From contig PEWR01000061.1 of NCBI GenBank assembly GCA_002779395.1, positions 5,104 through 69,103 on the forward strand: DNA of 64,000 nucleotides, in the 5' to 3' direction. The notes below the pieces were generated by a model. It saw only the letters and a program-made list of their open reading frames with translations. It ran no database searches and was not told the DNA's origin. A program made the position numbers and the translations under genes. Shown here piece by piece: positions 6,918 to 12,041 of the stretch; within the stretch, counting starts at the first letter, position 1, and every line of letters starts with the position of its first letter. The DNA is from Ignavibacteriales bacterium CG07_land_8_20_14_0_80_59_12. GTDB lineage: Bacteria > Bacteroidota > Ignavibacteria > 0-14-0-80-59-12.

Positions 6918-6939
6918 AAATAAGAGGTGAAAAGTCAAA

Positions 6940-6964
6940 CCCCCTCTCCATAGAGGAGAGGGGG
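6940..6964 (-). terminator. Probable intrinsic terminator for gene 6992..7570
   Basis: Perfect 10-bp GC-rich stem ccccctctcc/ggagaggggg with a 5-nt loop. On the minus strand it is followed by GTTTGACTTTTC. It lies 27 nt past the stop codon. Confidence 0.4.
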
Positions 6965-6991
6965 TTAAAGAACCTCTTCGGGGAGTGTGGT

Positions 6992-7570
6992 CTACCGCAC
7001 GTAGGCTAACTTCTTCACATTGGTGGATGTTCTGCTACTCACCTCAGATTTCGCCACCATACGATAGAAGTAAATCCCGCTGGCAACAGCCTCCGGCTTC
7101 CAATCAACTTTGTGAAAACCAGGTGGCTCAATCCCTTCAACGAGCGTTGCAACTTCTTCTCCAAGCACATTGTAGAGCTTGATGCTCACCTGAGATTCCT
7201 CAGGAAGTGCAAATTCAATCATAGTGCTCGGATTAAATGGATTCGGGTAGTTCTGCTCAAGCCGATACTCAGTAGGAAGCATCTCGCCCGGCTGCTCTGC
7301 TACACCTGTCAACAGATAGCGCTGCACGTGCCAGAAGCCGGCGATCTGCTTATTGGATGCATTGCTCGTTGTGCCGATGAATGGCTGTCCGAGCGTGCCA
7401 ACAAGCTTGTTGTCCCTGGAACTGAGTGAACCTCCTCCACTTCCAAAGACGCTCCGCGGGATGGCATACTGCCCTGATGCACTCTGGCAGAAGAGAAACA
7501 AGAAAACCACAATTCCTGCCGAAAAAATTGTCCCGCTAAAAGAAACGGGATTTTCAAGAAGATGTCTCAT
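6992..7570 (-). CDS. Small secreted protein with a T9SS C-terminal sorting domain (192 aa); cargo function unknown
   Basis: Signal peptide MRHLLENPVSFSGTIFSAGIVVFLFLFCQSASGQ. The last ~85 aa form a type-A Por secretion tail (NYPNPFNPSTMIEFALPEESQVSIKLYNVLGEEVATLV...GIYFYRMVA). GC is about 50% versus about 62% for the window. Confidence 0.8.
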   Translation of the reverse strand: MRHLLENPVSFSGTIFSAGIVVFLFLFCQSASGQYAIPRSVFGSGGGSLSSRDNKLVGTLGQPFIGTTSNASNKQIAGFWHVQRYLLTGVAEQPGEMLPTEYRLEQNYPNPFNPSTMIEFALPEESQVSIKLYNVLGEEVATLVEGIEPPGFHKVDWKPEAVASGIYFYRMVAKSEVSSRTSTNVKKLAYVR

Positions 7571-7583
7571 TTTTTTACCCTCC

Positions 7584-9617
7584 TCACTTTGCCTCTGGCT
7601 TTGCTTGCATCTTCTCTTGCTCAGCTTTCATCTTCTCTTGCTCAGCTTTCATCTTCTCTTGCTCAGCCCTCATCTGCTCCTCCATCTCGTGGTTCTTCTC
7701 ATAGTCTATACCCAACGTCTCTGATACGCCGTATTCCTTTGGATGGATGTACTTCCCTCGCTCCGCACCGGTTTTCTCCACCTCAACTTGAGCGGGATGC
7801 GCTTTAACATACGGGTCGTTACGGATGCCTGTGACCTGCCAGGAGACTCTCACGTTCGGTTTGTCAGTCTTGATTGAGAAGCGGTTGTTGTGAATTTCTT
7901 CACTCACGATTGCCTGAGCAAACTGTCCGATGACCGTTAATTGGTAGCGAAAGTCGCGGTTGAGGGCTTCGAAGTAGTCGGGTAGGGTGACCGTTGCCTC
8001 ACCATTAGCATCAGTAACGACGTTACCATTGTAGATATTCAGCACCTCATCCGACTCCACACAGAAATGGGCCAGGTACTTATTTGCCGGGTCGAGCGGA
8101 TGATCAATTTTGAATGACTTGTAGCCACCGACGTAGAGATGTCCTACGATCACCACATCGCCTTCGAAGTGGCCAGCGGGGGAGCTGCCGCTGCTCCAGC
8201 CATACACGGCGATGCCGGTGGTACTGTAGCCATATACGCCGTAGGGGTTGCCGGAGCCCCACACGCCGCAGTCACTCATGCCAAGGTATCCGAAGTTGCC
8301 GCTACTGCTGTAGCCATACACGCCATAGTCCGCGCCGTCGCCATACACGCCGTAGGTGCCGTGTCCATACACGCCGTAGCTTTGGCCGCCAAGGTATCCA
8401 TAGCGACCGCTCCCGTCGTTGCAGCCATACACGCCATACTCCCCGGCCTTGCCATACACGCCAGTGCTCCTGAAGCTCGTACCTCTGCCATAGACGCCGT
8501 AGCCGCTGTTGCTTTCGCCATACACGCCGTTGCCGCTGTTGTTGTAGCCATGCACGCCGTCGTTGCTGGTGCTTTCGCCATAGACGCCGTAGCCGCTGCC
8601 GCTGTAGCCATAGACGCCGTAGCCGCTGTTGCTGTAGCCAAACACGCCATCGTTGCTGTTGCTTTCGCCATACACGCCGTAGCCGCTGCCGCTGTAGCCA
8701 AACACGCCTTCGCCGCTGCTGCCAAGCCATCCGTAGTTGCCGCTGGTGCTGTGTATGCCAGACACGCCGGAGACGTAACCGCCAAGGTATCCGTAGCTGT
8801 CGCTAGTGCTGTTGTAGCCTTTCACGCCGGCGCCGCTGCCGGAATTTGTAGCAAAGATAATTGAATTTGGAGAAGCAGAGCTGCCGCTGAGTGAAAGAGG
8901 AACCCTCACGTTCAACGTCACATCACCAGTCGTTCCTCCACCGGATAAGCCTGTACCGGCAGTGACCCCAGTGATGTCGCCGCCAGCTCCGCCTGGGGTT
9001 GTGGCAATGGTCAAGGTGTTACCCAACGGGGTGATGCTTACGTTGGACCCTGCCTGCAGCGTGACGTTGTCGTGCAAGCTGTTCAGGCTCTTGACCACCT
9101 CTCCAGAGGCAATCTTGGTGCTGTCCACAGCACCATCGGCAATCTTCGCTGAGGTAACTGCATTGTTGTTAATACTTGGATTTGGATATCTCCCTGTTAA
9201 ATCACCGCCAGCTGTAATACCATTGATGCTGTCTGTGTTTGCAGCACGGAAGCTGTAGCCAGAGCCTGTCAACTGCATTCTCGGCGTAAGTTCCGTACCA
9301 GCTCCAACTGTTACTTCAAGCCAGTACGGCTTGTTAAAGGGCAGGTTTAATGTATCTACGCTCCCTAAGTTCACGCTGAATATCCCTTTGCTGACTGCAA
9401 CTGATTGTACCTCTTGCCATAGCGGCGTACCGCCTGTGGTAACGTCGTAGAGCTTGAAGGTGAGGCTGTAGTTACCATCAGGTACAGCCGTGCCGCTGGC
9501 ATCTGTCAAGATCCCCTGGTAGCTGATCGTCTTGGGAATTTGTGCAAGGCTCAATGGTGCAAGAAGAAGCACCATCAGTGCGATGGACAAGAATGTCCAA
9601 CGTAGAGTTGTGTTCAT
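7584..9617 (-). CDS. Gly/Tyr-rich repeat fibre-like secreted protein (677 aa). It has a signal peptide, an N-terminal beta domain, GYGVYG decapeptide repeats, a conserved C-terminal domain and a heptad coiled-coil tail.
   Basis: AAGGAGG RBS. Signal peptide MNTTLRWTFLSIALMVLLLAPLSLAQ. N-terminal domain ISYQGILTDASGTAVPDGNYSLTFKLYD. Central region has ~15 copies of the GYGVYG core across residues ~260-470, of which 8 are regular 30-bp units. C-terminal domain KSFKIDHPLDPANKYLAHFCVESDEVLNIYNGNVVTDANGEATVTLPDYFEALNRDFRYQLTVIG. Tail MRAEQEKMKAEQEKMKAEQEKMQAKPEAK. There is no T9SS C-terminal domain. Confidence 0.85.
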   Translation of the reverse strand: MNTTLRWTFLSIALMVLLLAPLSLAQIPKTISYQGILTDASGTAVPDGNYSLTFKLYDVTTGGTPLWQEVQSVAVSKGIFSVNLGSVDTLNLPFNKPYWLEVTVGAGTELTPRMQLTGSGYSFRAANTDSINGITAGGDLTGRYPNPSINNNAVTSAKIADGAVDSTKIASGEVVKSLNSLHDNVTLQAGSNVSITPLGNTLTIATTPGGAGGDITGVTAGTGLSGGGTTGDVTLNVRVPLSLSGSSASPNSIIFATNSGSGAGVKGYNSTSDSYGYLGGYVSGVSGIHSTSGNYGWLGSSGEGVFGYSGSGYGVYGESNSNDGVFGYSNSGYGVYGYSGSGYGVYGESTSNDGVHGYNNSGNGVYGESNSGYGVYGRGTSFRSTGVYGKAGEYGVYGCNDGSGRYGYLGGQSYGVYGHGTYGVYGDGADYGVYGYSSSGNFGYLGMSDCGVWGSGNPYGVYGYSTTGIAVYGWSSGSSPAGHFEGDVVIVGHLYVGGYKSFKIDHPLDPANKYLAHFCVESDEVLNIYNGNVVTDANGEATVTLPDYFEALNRDFRYQLTVIGQFAQAIVSEEIHNNRFSIKTDKPNVRVSWQVTGIRNDPYVKAHPAQVEVEKTGAERGKYIHPKEYGVSETLGIDYEKNHEMEEQMRAEQEKMKAEQEKMKAEQEKMQAKPEAK
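7603..7686. repeat. 21-bp tandem repeat, about 3.5 copies, encoding AEQEKMK heptads at the C-terminus of the fibre protein
   Basis: gcttgcatcttctcttgctca / gctttcatcttctcttgctca (twice) / a degenerate 4th unit. The period of 21 bp equals 7 aa. Confidence 0.8.
8482..8751. repeat. 30-bp imperfect tandem repeat, 8 regular units from 8512 with a degenerate copy upstream, encoding (S/N)SGYGVYGES decapeptides inside the fibre gene
   Basis: Units such as GCCATAGACGCCGTAGCCGCTGTTGCTTTC recur with 2-6 substitutions each. Antisense ORFs in the track (8139..8864, 8276..8785, 8302..8730) are artefacts of this repeat. Confidence 0.8.
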
Positions 9618-9868
9618 GGTACTACCTCCTTGTTTTGTTTGTTATGATGGTTTGTTTCCTAACGTGCAAAAGACGTTGGGCTGTTGACTGTCCCGCTGAA
9701 AAGAACGGGATTTTTCAATCTGTGCACATCTATGTTTACCCCTTTCCTTGTAGGAGAGGGTAGGGTGAGGTCATGAAATGCCTGGCTCATTGCTGCAACT
9801 GTTTCCTTCTGCATCCGCTTATTTACTGTTATATATAGTAGGAATTTGCTTCAGCTGCAAAAGATAAT

Positions 9869-10430
9869 CTAGAAGTCCGGCCGAAAACCCGCATGTCGAC
9901 GGGAGTGTGGCATGAAGCTTGCGCCATTTCTTGAGCACACGTGATCTCGGAAGAAAAACAGGCGAATCCATGTTCAACCGGCGTGACGCTCAAGAGTCTC
10001 TTCTCAATTCTGACAGTCAGTTTCTCAAAACTGTGGGTCGAGACACGTTCTATGGATTTCTCTCTGAGCATCGGCACGGGATCTTCCGTGACGACGACTT
10101 CGGATTTCTCTACTGCCGGAACAACGGCCGCCCGTCGGTCCCGCCGAGCATCTTAGCTCTCTCACTTCTCCTGCAGATCTACAACAAGGTCTCGGACGAC
10201 GAGGCGGCGCGCCGTGCCCACTTCGATCTCCAGTGGCAGGTCGCGCTCGGGATCCCCGTCGGTTCGCAAACGTTCGTCAAGAGCACGTTGCAGATGTTCC
10301 CTTCGCAACTCATTCTCCATGAGACAGCGCGCGACATTTTCATGAAGTCGATTGGCAACCACCTAACTGTCCGGAAGGCTGTGACACGGTACAACGCCGA
10401 GAATGCTCTCCGCCTCACCGATCAGGCTGT
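9869..10430 (+). mobile_element. Truncated IS5/IS1182-family element (copy 2): left end plus the N-terminal ~150 codons of the transposase. The 3' boundary is approximate.
   Basis: The first 130 bp duplicate 6788..6917. The encoded N-terminus contains the InsH-type DUF772 motif FLYCRNNGRPSVPPSILALSLLLQIYNKVSDDEAARRAHFDLQWQVALGI. There is no DDE catalytic region. The ORF runs into the oppositely oriented gene at 10435. Confidence 0.6.
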
Positions 10431-10506
10431 TCTGTCATTTCACCAAGGTCATCTTCTGAATCTTCGAGAACGACCCTCCCGTTATCTGATAGAAGTAGAG
10501 ACCTGA
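9970..10506 (+). pseudogene. Transposase N-terminal fragment (IS5/IS1182 family), truncated
   Basis: The true start is most likely MFNRRDAQESLL at 9970; the track ORF 9919..10506 starts at an upstream in-frame codon. Only ~150-180 aa of the expected ~450 are present, and the tail is probably read-through into antisense of the neighbouring gene. Confidence 0.55.
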
Positions 10507-10740
10507 GGAAAACCCTGAGGCGTCGAACAGAACCGCATGCATCCCGGGCGAGAGCGTCTCATCCACCAGCTTGGTGATTTCCCGGCCCATCGAGTCGAAA
10601 ACCCTCAGCACGACGTGTTCTGACTGTGGCAATTCAAAGCTTATCATGGTGTTTGGATTGAAGGGATTTGGAGAGAGGTGAAGCTTGCCCCTGTTGCGCC
10701 CGAATCGGATGTACGGCAATGGCGGCAAAACAGAAGGCAA
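10435..10740 (-). pseudogene. Orphan T9SS C-terminal sorting domain, a remnant of a decayed secreted-protein gene
   Basis: The track ORF begins at a TTG. Only the last ~80 aa are domain-like (SPNPFNPNTMISFELPQSEHVVLRVFDSMGREITKLVDETLSPGMHAVLFDASGFSSGLYFYQI). An ATG-initiated signal-peptide ORF (MRILSGIAVAFCFAAIAV...) lies in another frame at 10723-10765. The upstream PQQ gene is in the third frame. Confidence 0.5.
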
Positions 10741-10787
10741 CCGCGATACCGGACAAGATTCTCATTGTTTCCCCCTTTCTTGTTTGT

Positions 10788-12041
10788 TCATTTGATCGCG
10801 TATACGTGGTGACCGGGATTGTTGGAGCTCACATATATTCTCCCGTTACCGCTGATTGCCGGCGGAGAATCGATATTGGGGATCCAACCGCCCAGACCTC
10901 CCGCGAGATACATCTGAAACTTCATCGTGCCATCTGGATTCAGAGCAATGAAGTTGGTTGAATCGGCTGGATTCCCGTATGGTCTGCGAGAGTGAGTGAG
11001 TCCAAAGTAGATTGTCCCATCCACGTCAATGGCTGGTATGCAGTCAGAAAGTGCAGGAAGTGGGTATTTCCACTTCAGTCTGCCTGCGTAGTCGATCGCA
11101 TACAAATCCAAACACGTGATAACATAGATCGTGCCGTCCCATCCGATGATGGGCCCGATGCCCAACCCTGTCCAGGGCACTCCAGGGAGTCGCCACCGCA
11201 GCACGCCCGATTGGTCGAACGAGCATAATTCATCCGCTCCGGCACAGAAGTAGACATTGCCGTCGTTGTCAACTGCAGGCGCCGATGGTACTTTTCTGCA
11301 AGTCAACCTCAAATGACCGCTCGTGTCCACAGCATAAAGCGCGTGGCCACCAGGGACATAGAGTAATGTGCCATCCGGGCTCATCGCCGGTGAGTATTGA
11401 ACGGAGTCACTGTCGGGCTTCCACTTCCAGTGTAGTGTCCCATCCCTTCGGATAGCGTATAGTGAACCTACCGCAAGATAGACTGTTCCCCCATCTTTCG
11501 AGATTACCGGCGAACTGAAGCTCGCATTCCCTACCACAGGGAATCTCCATTTCAGAAAACCACCACGGTCATAAGCAAACAGGTACCGTTGCCAGTTGTC
11601 ATAACCGTCCACGTGCACATTCCCATCAGCAGCGACCAACGCCGAGCCGTCTCCTGCAGTGGATTTGCTCCACTTTAACTGACCATCTGCTCCTATGGCG
11701 AGGAAATCCGGAGAAAAAGAACTGACGCGCACGTAGATTGTCCCGTTTTCATCAATCACCGGGGATGAGAATACCCCACCGCCAGCGAAAAACGTCCACT
11801 CGACTTTCCCCTCTTGCGGACCGCGGTACGGGCTCCTTCCGGTATGCTGCGCATCATGGAGGAACATTGGCCAGGGGGAATTGGCTAACCCCGGCCAGGA
11901 GATCTCATGTTGTTGCTTGGTTAGAAAATGCGCGGTGTCCGGCGGCGCAACTAGTTGGCTGTTCTTCCTACATGACGCGGAGAAGAGAGCGAAGGACAGG
12001 ATGAGAACTGATCCCACAAATGCTGCAAGTGCGCTTCGCAT
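10788..12041 (-). CDS. PQQ-like beta-propeller repeat lipoprotein (BamB-like fold)
   Basis: AGGAGG RBS. Lipoprotein signal LILSFALFSASC. Repeated xDGTIY(V/F) blades recur throughout (DENGTIYV, DGNVHV, DGGTVYLAV, DGTLLYV, DGNVYF, DGTIYV, NGRIYV). GC is about 52%. Confidence 0.8.
   Translation of the reverse strand: MRSALAAFVGSVLILSFALFSASCRKNSQLVAPPDTAHFLTKQQHEISWPGLANSPWPMFLHDAQHTGRSPYRGPQEGKVEWTFFAGGGVFSSPVIDENGTIYVRVSSFSPDFLAIGADGQLKWSKSTAGDGSALVAADGNVHVDGYDNWQRYLFAYDRGGFLKWRFPVVGNASFSSPVISKDGGTVYLAVGSLYAIRRDGTLHWKWKPDSDSVQYSPAMSPDGTLLYVPGGHALYAVDTSGHLRLTCRKVPSAPAVDNDGNVYFCAGADELCSFDQSGVLRWRLPGVPWTGLGIGPIIGWDGTIYVITCLDLYAIDYAGRLKWKYPLPALSDCIPAIDVDGTIYFGLTHSRRPYGNPADSTNFIALNPDGTMKFQMYLAGGLGGWIPNIDSPPAISGNGRIYVSSNNPGHHVYAIK

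What the first reader, a model, noticed from the sequence alone, without database searches (positions are those of the whole stretch)
7584..9617. 677-aa secreted Gly/Tyr-rich repeat fibre protein with unusual modular architecture
The architecture, in order, is: a signal peptide; an N-terminal domain ISYQGILTDASGTAVPDGNYSLTFKLYD...LWQE; a Gly/Thr-rich linker (GGAGGDITGVTAGTGLSGGGTTGDVTLNV) that looks like tail-fibre triplet repeats; ~15 copies of the GYGVYG core (8 as regular decapeptide units); a conserved C-terminal domain (KSFKIDHPLDPANKYLAHF...LPDYFEALNRDFRYQLTVIG); and a heptad coiled-coil tail (AEQEKMK x3). The N-terminal domain is of a kind I have seen at the start of phage-tail-fibre-like or adhesin-like proteins in the FCB group. 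Tyr/Gly decapeptide repeats are reminiscent of cross-linkable structural proteins. It has no T9SS tail although its neighbour does. It could be a surface fibre or adhesin, a phage-receptor-binding-protein relic, or a biofilm matrix protein. I do not recognise this combination as a described family.
Basis: partly seen in the sequence, partly recalled or inferred. Interest (0 to 1): 0.75.

Follow-up and report, generated by a model that had tools for sequence, protein, structure and literature searches.

The report
Phage-tail-fibre-like surface fibre with adaptor
This gene encodes a secreted fibre built like a phage tail fibre on a base domain related to the prey-binding fibres of Bdellovibrio. 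It belongs to a very large uncharacterised family and is always paired with a small gene that probably tethers it to the cell surface.

The parts
9543..9617 (-). Fibre signal peptide (res 1-25; predicted cleavage LSLA|QIPK)
   Evidence: Sequence features; helix 3-19 in the model. The homologous domain starts at residue ~21-26 in nearly all of the best 150 superfamily representatives.
9258..9542 (-). N-terminal base domain (res 26-120), remotely homologous to the Bdellovibrio MAT N-domain
   Evidence: pLDDT about 90, beta-rich. NCBIfam NF053851 Bdello_MAT_N: E 9e-7 for this protein, and 20/20 family members hit it with best E 8e-11, all below the curated cut-off. 61,299 representative clusters carry the domain.
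8853..9257 (-). Proximal shaft (res 121-255): DUF5907-like repeat and the GDITGVTAGTGLSGGGTTGDVTLNV tail-fibre motif
   Evidence: PF19264 is sub-threshold here (E 0.027) but above cut-off in homologues. phrog_38058 tail fiber matches res 211-241. Low pLDDT in the monomer model.
8178..8852 (-). Gly/Ser/Tyr-rich shaft of G[VI]xG decapeptide-type units (res 256-480). The regular array covers res ~299-377, nt 8487-8722.
   Evidence: 17 units, eight at exact 10-aa spacing. TRF 30-nt period with 7.9 copies. Aligns with the repeat shaft of the phage protein L088:6861-8429. A 20-aa indel separates near-identical alleles.
7707..8177 (-). Conserved C-terminal beta-sandwich knob (res 481-637; IDHPLDP...RYQLTVIG...VSWQVTG)
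7584..7706 (-). Charged C-terminal helix with AEQEKMK heptads (res 638-677) plus the stop codon
   Evidence: TRF 21-nt period with 3.7 copies at 7603-7679. Helix 639-672 in both models. Alleles have one heptad fewer.
6992..7570 (-). Partner gene, 192 aa: signal peptide (res 1-34), 48-aa GQP/GFW motif (res 35-83; nt 7322-7468), T9SS type-A CTD (res ~96-186)
   Evidence: Por_Secre_tail PF18962 and TIGR04183. The motif HMM hits 26 ORFs in the loci plus the window; every match examined lies directly beside a fibre gene. Reciprocal search: 18/19 loci. Co-diverges with the N-domain.
7571..7583 (-). 13-nt intergenic spacer with a GGAGG ribosome-binding site (fibre and partner form an operon)
   Evidence: Sequence tgaGGAGGGtaaaaaaATG.
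6938..6966 (-). Terminator-like hairpin just after the partner stop codon
   Evidence: 12-bp stem with 8 GC pairs, followed by a T-rich tail.

Best explanation
The gene encodes a Sec-exported, probably homotrimeric, surface fibre assembled from interchangeable modules. The N-terminal base domain (res 26-120) is related to the base of the Bdellovibrio 'mosaic adhesive trimer' (MAT) fibres. The shaft consists of DUF5907-type repeats and 10-residue G[VI]xG beta repeats. The distal C-terminal beta-sandwich knob is of the phage tail-fibre/tailspike type and is followed by a charged helix. Shaft and knob share ancestry with real phage tail fibres. The base domain and signal peptide are the cellular replacement for a virion-attachment domain. 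The co-transcribed 192-aa neighbour consists of a signal peptide, a 48-aa GQP/GFW motif and a T9SS CTD. I infer that it is the fibre's adaptor. After T9SS export and CTD removal it would be a small stub fixed to the cell surface. The fibre base would dock on it, and it might carry the CTD-less fibre out through the T9SS. The knob would then point outward and bind a ligand, probably a carbohydrate. Shown: the domain architecture, the homologies, the mosaic C-termini, the gene pairing and the co-divergence. Inferred: trimeric state, surface location, base-adaptor docking, co-export and ligand.
Against: No multimer prediction or experiment was possible. In the monomer model res 119-500 have low confidence, pLDDT 36-74. 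The MAT_N match is sub-threshold (about 30 bits against a cut-off of 60) and covers only profile positions 12-74 of 162. Similarity of the knob to solved structures is at fold level only (10-20% identity; Foldseek against PDB gives no hit with E <= 0.001). MAT tips are variable, whereas this knob is 55-70% identical across phyla, which is unusual for a ligand-specific tip. Export of a CTD-less protein by piggy-backing through the T9SS has no established precedent that I know of. The co-divergence result could simply reflect the N-domain and partner being inherited together while knobs recombine. In about two thirds of the genome loci, especially from Acidobacteriota, no adjacent partner was detected.
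Confidence: 0.6

Rival explanations
1. The conserved C-terminal domain is not the working tip. It would be an intramolecular trimerisation/folding module, the functional counterpart of the Peptidase_S74 chaperone found at the same position in paralogues. It might be removed after assembly, leaving the repeat shaft as the functional surface.
For: It occupies the position that S74 holds in paralogues with the same N-domain. Like S74, it is unusually conserved across phyla and joined to very different shafts, including phage ones. Many polar residues are invariant, including D505, H506 (in at least 90% of sequences), the Asp-Pro pair D509-P510, H517, E521, S592, R599, E612 and K615. It is always at the extreme C-terminus and is followed by a helix, as in S74 chaperone domains (the last point is from my own knowledge).
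Against: There is no Peptidase_S74 match and no SDxxxK motif. Its fold resembles mature knob domains that remain on tail fibres and tailspikes. Small, evidently terminal alternative tips replace it in close paralogues. No evidence of cleavage is available.
Confidence: 0.2
2. It is a relic of a prophage or tailocin: a stranded receptor-binding protein with no cellular role.
For: Shaft and knob are homologous to phage tail fibres. The region has lower GC (0.47-0.55 against about 0.6) and an adjacent DUF772 transposase fragment.
Against: It has a signal peptide and a cellular N-domain that was not found in 2.9 million viral contigs. There are no phage genes in the flanks. The ORF is intact and conserved, with thousands of homologues in cellular contexts and a conserved non-phage partner. 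Alleles vary only by whole repeat units.
Confidence: 0.05
3. It is a Tyr/Gly-rich matrix or structural protein that becomes cross-linked (for example through dityrosine) in a biofilm or cell envelope.
For: The repeat region of this allele is 29% Gly, 17% Ser and 16% Tyr.
Against: Tyr is not conserved at the repeat position: Y in 41.5% of units, with R, S, L, V and A also common. Tyr content varies from 1.2% to 18.8% among homologues, and the phage homologue uses V, Q and L at that position. The folded base and knob domains argue for a discrete fibre rather than a matrix.
Confidence: 0.05
4. The small neighbour is an assembly factor like a tail-fibre chaperone, or an unrelated T9SS cargo that is merely co-transcribed. 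It would not be an anchor.
For: Phage tail-fibre genes are often followed by small assembly-chaperone genes (my own knowledge). The partner motif shows no detectable similarity to any known anchor.
Against: The partner has its own signal peptide and lineage-specific surface-sorting or tethering modules (T9SS CTD, dockerin), which suit an extracellular tether better than a folding factor. The adjacency holds across nine phyla and in 18/19 reciprocal loci. It follows the N-domain whatever the tip.
Confidence: 0.1

Closest known systems
Bdellovibrio bacteriovorus MAT (mosaic adhesive trimer) chimeric fibre proteins (Caulton et al. 2024, PMC10769870; NCBIfam NF053851 Bdello_MAT_N)
   Same: A signal peptide is followed immediately by a conserved beta-rich base domain, with profile homology in 20/20 family members. 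Both have a long repeat shaft. In both, the C-terminus is either Peptidase_S74 or a non-S74 tip, and tips are swapped between paralogues with near-identical N-termini.
   Different: The match is below the family cut-off and covers less than half of the model. The base domain here is about 95 aa rather than about 130. The organism is an Ignavibacteriales MAG that is not known to be predatory. The C-terminal knob is highly conserved rather than variable. A conserved partner gene is present, whereas the paper leaves the anchor of the MAT base unidentified. The trimeric state was not shown here.
Phage tail fibres and minor tail proteins: the uncultivated myovirus-like contig IMGVR_UViG_3300027902_000041 (L088:6861-8429) and Arthrobacter phage Mufasa8 gp19 (QGJ93469.1)
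   Same: L088 has the same G[VI]xG decapeptide shaft and the same C-terminal knob (38% identity over res 159-637). It sits after baseplate-wedge and tail-fibre genes. Mufasa8 gp19 shares the knob (38% identity over res 486-600) and is the last minor tail gene after the tape measure.
   Different: The phage proteins have no signal peptide, no MAT-like base domain and no partner gene. Neither phage protein has been characterised functionally.
C-terminal knob domains of solved tailspikes and fibres: cyanophage Pam1 tailspike (7eea), R2 pyocin fibre (6cl6/6cu2), phage AP22 gp53 (4mtm), Klebsiella K1 lyase (7w1c), LKA1 gp49 (4ru4)
   Different: Only 10-19% identity. No sequence-level relation was found even with a profile. 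Foldseek E-values are no better than 0.016. The conserved IDHPLDP / RYQLT / SWQVTG motifs are specific to this family.
T9SS cargo proteins with a type-A C-terminal domain (Por_Secre_tail, TIGR04183)
   Same: The partner protein is a standard type-A CTD cargo.
   Different: The fibre itself has no CTD. In phyla without a T9SS the partner keeps its N-terminal motif and carries dockerin or other modules in place of the CTD.

Membership tests
Bdellovibrio MAT family (NCBIfam NF053851 Bdello_MAT_N; PMC10769870) | Conserved beta-rich N-terminal domain of ~130 aa immediately after the signal peptide, scoring above the NCBIfam cut-off (60 bits) | tested here: not met
   28.8-30.3 bits, E 9e-7 to 3e-7, profile positions 2-74 and 12-74 of 162. 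All 20 family N-domains hit the model (best E 8e-11) but below the cut-off. This makes it a remote homologue, not a member of the Bdellovibrio subfamily.
Bdellovibrio MAT family | Mosaic C-termini on a constant base: either the Peptidase_S74 chaperone or non-S74 tip domains | tested here: met
   In the N-domain superfamily, 21/78 representatives carry S74 and 9/78 YadA_head. Neighbouring paralogues end in S74. Alternative small tips sit on near-identical N-termini. This protein is of the non-S74 type.
Bdellovibrio MAT family | Homotrimeric fibre displayed on the cell surface | not testable with these tools
   No multimer prediction was available. The monomer model has low confidence across the shaft. 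The only support is indirect: trimer-obligate modules in paralogues and trimeric structural neighbours.
Phage tail fibre / receptor-binding protein | Encoded in a phage tail or baseplate gene module, with an N-terminal virion-attachment domain | tested here: not met
   The neighbours are an ABC transporter, thioesterase, esterase, glycoside hydrolase, phosphatase and TyrRS. The N-terminus is a signal peptide plus a cellular base domain that was not found in viral contigs.
Phage tail fibre / receptor-binding protein | Repeat shaft plus C-terminal knob homologous to those of phage fibres | tested here: met
Peptidase_S74 (intramolecular chaperone) fibres | C-terminal PF13884 domain with the SDxxxK catalytic motif | tested here: not met
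   No PF13884 hit even at E <= 10. The motif is absent from the sequence.
T9SS type-A cargo | C-terminal sorting domain (PF18962 / TIGR04183) | tested here: not met
   No hit in the fibre. The partner meets it: PF18962 E 1e-6, TIGR04183 E 9e-8.
Trimeric autotransporter adhesins (the name given to some homologues by public sources) | C-terminal YadA-type membrane anchor beta-barrel | tested here: not met
   No YadA anchor or autotransporter domain in Pfam at E <= 10. The C-terminus is a soluble beta-sandwich plus a helix. The public names are inconsistent.
DUF5907 repeat proteins (PF19264) | PF19264 repeat scoring above the gathering score (27 bits) | tested here: inconclusive
   15.1 bits, E 0.027 at res 126-177 in this protein. 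Close homologues P0003, P0006 and P0020 score above the cut-off, 29-35 bits.

The most novel reading that the evidence does not exclude
The fibre and its small neighbour form a widespread two-component surface-fibre system that has not been described. The adaptor carries a 48-aa motif with three internal GGxYxLxG-like repeats. This pseudo-threefold motif would cap or dock the threefold base of the trimeric fibre. The adaptor also supplies the lineage-specific export or tether signal: a T9SS CTD in the FCB group, and dockerin or other modules elsewhere. In T9SS organisms the CTD-less fibre would then be carried out by piggy-backing on its adaptor. This would also name a candidate for the unidentified cell-surface anchor of MAT-type fibres.
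Probability: 0.3. Interest if true: 0.75.

Novelty: new variant of a known kind. Interest (0 to 1): 0.55.

Why it matters
MAT fibres were described in 2024 as a speciality of the predator Bdellovibrio, and what anchors their base is still unknown. The present locus shows the same design in a non-predatory Ignavibacteriales genome: a constant secreted base, trimer-type shafts and swappable tips. The base domain occurs in about 61,000 protein clusters across many phyla, so this may be a general bacterial way of building surface fibres from phage tail-fibre parts. The C-terminal knob is present in thousands of proteins and has no name in Pfam or NCBIfam, and public annotations of it disagree. The conserved partner gives a concrete, testable candidate for how such fibres are fixed to the cell. 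In T9SS organisms it would also explain how a protein without a CTD could reach the surface. A cultured carrier, Chryseobacterium oryctis, makes the experiment feasible.

Tried and rejected
- Pfam, NCBIfam, PHROGs and PDB sequence searches on the whole protein gave no family assignment. They returned only weak hints, and a PDB profile search with the knob alignment found nothing.
- Foldseek of the full-length model against PDB gave no hit with E <= 0.001. The N-domain therefore has no solved relative, as the MAT paper also reports.
- The afdb50 fold library was unavailable, so I could not look for Bdellovibrio MAT models directly.
- The third homologue search, with the N-domain profile, returned only short unnamed fragments. 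The exhaustive representative search was used instead.
- The weak NCBIfam hit of the partner to the CPR pilus tip pilin PamT (E 0.0098) was checked against the paper. I dropped it as too weak.
- Profile comparison of the partner motif with the fibre N-domain and with the whole fibre found no similarity.
- Full-text searches for the sequence motifs (IDHPLDP, RYQLTVIG, GYGVYG), for DUF5907, and for T9SS with tail fibre and S74 found no description of this family.
It was repeated with three close sequences.
- The Bacteroidetes Q-rule might explain the conserved Gln at the mature N-termini. I did not rely on it, because the paper says the rule does not hold across the whole FCB group.
- A canonical coiled coil for the tail is not supported, because there is only one hydrophobic residue per heptad.
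Full report
**1. Observation**

Window 7584-9617 holds an ATG-started ORF of 677 aa on the minus strand. An AAGGAGG ribosome-binding site precedes it. The identical protein is public as PIU45436.1, a 'hypothetical protein' of the MAG Ignavibacteriales bacterium CG07_land_8_20_14_0_80_59_12.

- Signal-peptide-like N-terminus, res 1-25.
- Beta-rich domain, res ~26-120.
- Gly/Thr-rich stretch that includes GDITGVTAGTGLSGGGTTGDVTLNV.
- Gly/Ser/Tyr-rich repeat region, res ~256-480 (29% G, 17% S, 16% Y).
- Conserved domain, res ~500-637.
- C-terminal tail with AEQEKMK heptads.

The counts need correcting:
- Exact GYGVYG occurs 4 times and YGVYG 9 times.
- The looser unit G[VI]xG occurs 17 times.
- Eight of the units lie at exact 10-residue spacing. 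At DNA level this is a 30-nt period with 7.9 copies and a 90-nt super-period at 78-88% match.

The array is not an assembly artefact. Independent assemblies reproduce it. Near-identical alleles differ only by whole units: one AEQEKMK heptad and one 20-aa insertion in the shaft.

**2. The C-terminal domain**

With 50 homologues, AlphaFold2 models res 482-677 at mean pLDDT 91.6. The model is a beta-sandwich followed by a long helix, res 639-672.

Sequence identity to all of these is only 10-19%. A profile search of PDB sequences finds nothing, and Foldseek E-values are no better than 0.016. This is therefore a fold-level relation to the distal knobs of trimeric phage fibres and spikes.

The domain is very well conserved:
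- It is 55-70% identical across Ignavibacteria, Bacteroidota, Acidobacteriota, Chloroflexota, Planctomycetota, Verrucomicrobiota, Zixibacteria, Deinococcota and some Gammaproteobacteria.
- 30 columns are invariant in 50 sequences.
- There are 4,742 clusters at 90% identity.
- No Pfam or NCBIfam model covers it.

**3. Phage relatives are real but rare**

Only 9 loci in 2.9 million viral contigs carry the domain. In those loci it ends proteins that have no signal peptide.

One of them, L088:6861-8429 (522 aa), has the same 'SYGVYG' decapeptide shaft. It lies directly after baseplate-wedge (phrog_219) and tail-fibre (phrog_4176) genes. It aligns with res 159-637 of the window protein at 38% identity, E 1e-60.

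Among cultured phages, only Arthrobacter phages Mufasa8 and Sonali have a relative. Mufasa8 gp19 is annotated 'minor tail protein' and is the last of three such genes after the tape measure. It is 38% identical over res 486-600. It is also the best BFVD structural hit.

So the shaft and knob form a genuine tail-fibre module. The window gene itself sits among housekeeping genes: an ABC sugar transporter, thioesterase, esterase, glycoside hydrolase, phosphatase and TyrRS.

**4. The N-terminal domain**

The domain is modelled at pLDDT about 90. It gives a sub-threshold hit to NCBIfam NF053851, the N-domain of the Bdellovibrio 'mosaic adhesive trimer' fibres (E 9e-7). When 20 diverse family N-domains are scanned without their signal peptides, all 20 hit that model and no other family recurs. 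The best E is 8e-11, over profile positions 12-74 of 162.

Caulton et al. (PMC10769870) define MATs as follows:
- A signal peptide is followed by a conserved ~130-aa beta domain.
- The shaft is a trimeric fibre.
- C-termini are either Peptidase_S74 chaperones or diverse tips.
- Tips are exchanged between fibres that have similar N-termini.
- The base is thought to bind an unidentified cell-surface element.

The exhaustive profile search finds the N-domain in 61,299 representative clusters, 31,782 of them at E <= 1e-10. It almost always starts at residue ~21-30. Of 78 of the best representatives, 21 carry Peptidase_S74, 9 YadA_head, 2 UspA1 repeats and 3 DUF5907. My local HMM finds the knob in 22 of 136.

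Related loci show the same mosaic pattern:
- Paralogues with the same N-domain but no knob end in Peptidase_S74. These are L022:6065-8719, L019:5195-8164 and L012:2579-3889, with E 1e-13 to 1e-16.
- Close relatives with almost the same signal peptide and N-domain end in a different small tip (L094, L100, L103) or yet another one (L106).

This is the MAT pattern at a much larger taxonomic scale. The N-domain was not found in viral contigs with the patterns used.

**5. The shaft**

Res 119-500 have low confidence in the monomer model (pLDDT 36-74), and the regular array is below 50. That is expected for an intertwined trimer, but it proves nothing.

Among the 120 best homologues:
- The median is 10 G[VI]xG units per protein.
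- A spacing of 10 residues is the commonest (29%).
- The x position is Tyr in 41.5% of units and aromatic in about 60%.
- Tyr content of the repeat region ranges from 1.2% to 18.8%, with a median of 7.5%. The window protein has 15.4%.

Tyr richness is therefore a feature of this allele, not of the family. That argues against a cross-linking role.

The tail is a predicted helix. Its heptad AEQEKMK has only Met as a hydrophobic residue, so a canonical coiled coil is not shown.

**6. The neighbour is a partner**

The 192-aa gene at 6992-7570(-) starts 13 nt after the fibre stop codon and has its own GGAGG site. A strong terminator-like hairpin follows it at 6938-6966. It encodes a signal peptide, a ~48-aa motif and a T9SS type-A CTD. 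The motif reads ..SVFGSGGG..LVGTLGQPFIG....AGFW.

The same pairing occurs in related Ignavibacteria, sometimes duplicated in tandem.

A motif HMM finds 26 ORFs in the fetched genome loci and the window. Every match examined lies directly next to a fibre gene. They come from Ignavibacteria, Zixibacteria, Rhodothermales, Bacteroidota (where the partner is upstream, including in cultured Chryseobacterium oryctis), Planctomycetota, Acidobacteriota, Gammaproteobacteria, Chloroflexota and Verrucomicrobiota.

The motif is constant, but the rest of the partner is lineage-specific:
- Por_Secre_tail in the FCB group.
- Dockerin_1 in Chloroflexia, in Verrucomicrobia and, sub-threshold, in Zixibacteria.
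- A CarboxypepD_reg-like domain, or BACON plus an Ig domain, in Acidobacteriota.

Outside the FCB group the motif shows three internal GGxYxLxG-like repeats.

In the reciprocal test I started from the partner motif in metagenome contigs. In 18 of 19 loci an N-domain fibre gene lies directly upstream, including fibres without the knob.

On 28 fibre-partner pairs:
- Partner distances correlate with N-domain distances: Spearman 0.75, partial 0.72 given the knob, Mantel p 0.001.
- They do not correlate with knob distances once the N-domain is controlled: partial 0.015, p 0.41.

The partner therefore goes with the base and not with the tip. This shows co-inheritance. Physical contact is an inference.

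**7. Mechanism proposed**

Shown by the evidence:
- The modular architecture and the homologies.
- The tip mosaicism.
- The operon structure.
- The cross-phylum pairing and the co-divergence.

Inferred:
- The protein is a homotrimeric fibre. Support comes from trimer-obligate S74 and YadA modules on the same base, and from trimeric structural neighbours.
- The base docks on the partner. After T9SS export and CTD removal the partner would be a ~60-aa stub attached to the cell surface. The attachment chemistry is established for T9SS type-A cargo in Bacteroidota and was not tested here.
- The CTD-less fibre may leave the periplasm together with its partner.
- The knob points outward and binds a ligand, plausibly a carbohydrate given the lectin-like neighbours.

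The main rival holds that the knob is a folding or trimerisation module analogous to S74. This fits its extreme conservation and its position. It is weakened by its resemblance to mature knobs and by the alternative tips found in close paralogues.

**8. Verdict**

It is best filed as a new variant of a known kind: a MAT-like mosaic fibre derived from phage tail-fibre parts. It carries an unnamed, very widespread C-terminal knob and a conserved adaptor gene that has not been described.

It does not meet the curated threshold for the Bdellovibrio MAT subfamily. It is not a T9SS cargo, an S74 fibre or an autotransporter. Public names for homologues are inconsistent: 'autotransporter beta-barrel domain', 'GLUG motif', 'trimeric autotransporter adhesin' and 'hypothetical'.

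Noticed in passing
window 9829-12041: Upstream of the fibre gene a 101-aa ORF (10435-10740, minus strand) consists of little more than a T9SS CTD (PF18962, E 3e-8). It lies 48 nt after, and in a different frame from, a 417-aa PQQ/BamB-like beta-propeller ORF (10788-12041). A DUF772 transposase fragment lies on the opposite strand at 9919-10506. This looks like a T9SS cargo gene split by a frameshift beside an IS remnant.
   Followed up: partly
window 7000-12000: The segment holding the fibre, the partner and the IS remnant has lower GC (0.47-0.55 in 500-nt windows, apart from the Gly-codon-rich repeats) than the flanks (0.58-0.65). This may mark a horizontally acquired island.
   Followed up: no
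window 7603-7679 and 8178-8852; proteins P0509, P0512: Alleles at least 99% identical from other assemblies lack one AEQEKMK heptad. One of them has a 20-aa (two-unit) insertion after res 436. This is repeat copy-number polymorphism in natural populations.
   Followed up: yes
L094:4211-4906, L100:5102-5884, L103:1692-3473: Minimal fibres of 231-260 aa consist of the same signal peptide and N-domain joined directly to a small alternative tip (..NRAAPIAYAAINSDGT..FSFVTYKP). The same tip also ends a long fibre that has DUF5907 and GVYG repeats. All are followed by the partner gene.
   Followed up: partly
L092:426-953 and L092:1120-1692: Two small proteins share the fibre's signal peptide and the first residues after it (..SLAQVPKK..) but then have an unrelated body. 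They precede a partner gene, and this is the only reciprocal locus without an N-domain fibre.
   Followed up: no
proteins P0385, P0402, P0405, P0427, P0439, P0440, P0444 and others: Other unnamed C-terminal types recur among N-domain proteins. One ends ..GDLLTTS..PGYAMK..GAI.GKAM....VLVTLQ. Another (..FSYRVVAKR..YFEDERLATP.., also ..FDYRIVAKR..) looks like a diverged sister of the knob described here.
   Followed up: no
window residues Q26 (fibre) and Q35 (partner); alignments A2, A5: A Gln at the predicted mature N-terminus is nearly invariant in the fibre family (AQ[IV]P) and common in the partners (..QYAIP). It could become pyroglutamate, but the published Q-rule is said not to cover the whole FCB group (PMC5837995).
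   Followed up: partly
L085 and L089 (IMGVR_UViG_GVMAG-M-3300017963-10_000001): Two contigs binned as a giant-virus MAG encode proteins with collagen-like GxQGxTG repeats and YadA-like repeats that end in the same C-terminal knob. I did not determine whether this is real viral use of the knob or a binning contaminant.
   Followed up: no
L044:5496-5807 and L069:5498-6292: In Xanthomonadales-type genomes the partner ends shortly after the motif with ..LFANGFE / ..FRNGFETP. This short conserved C-terminal tag may be a lineage-specific sorting signal.
   Followed up: no
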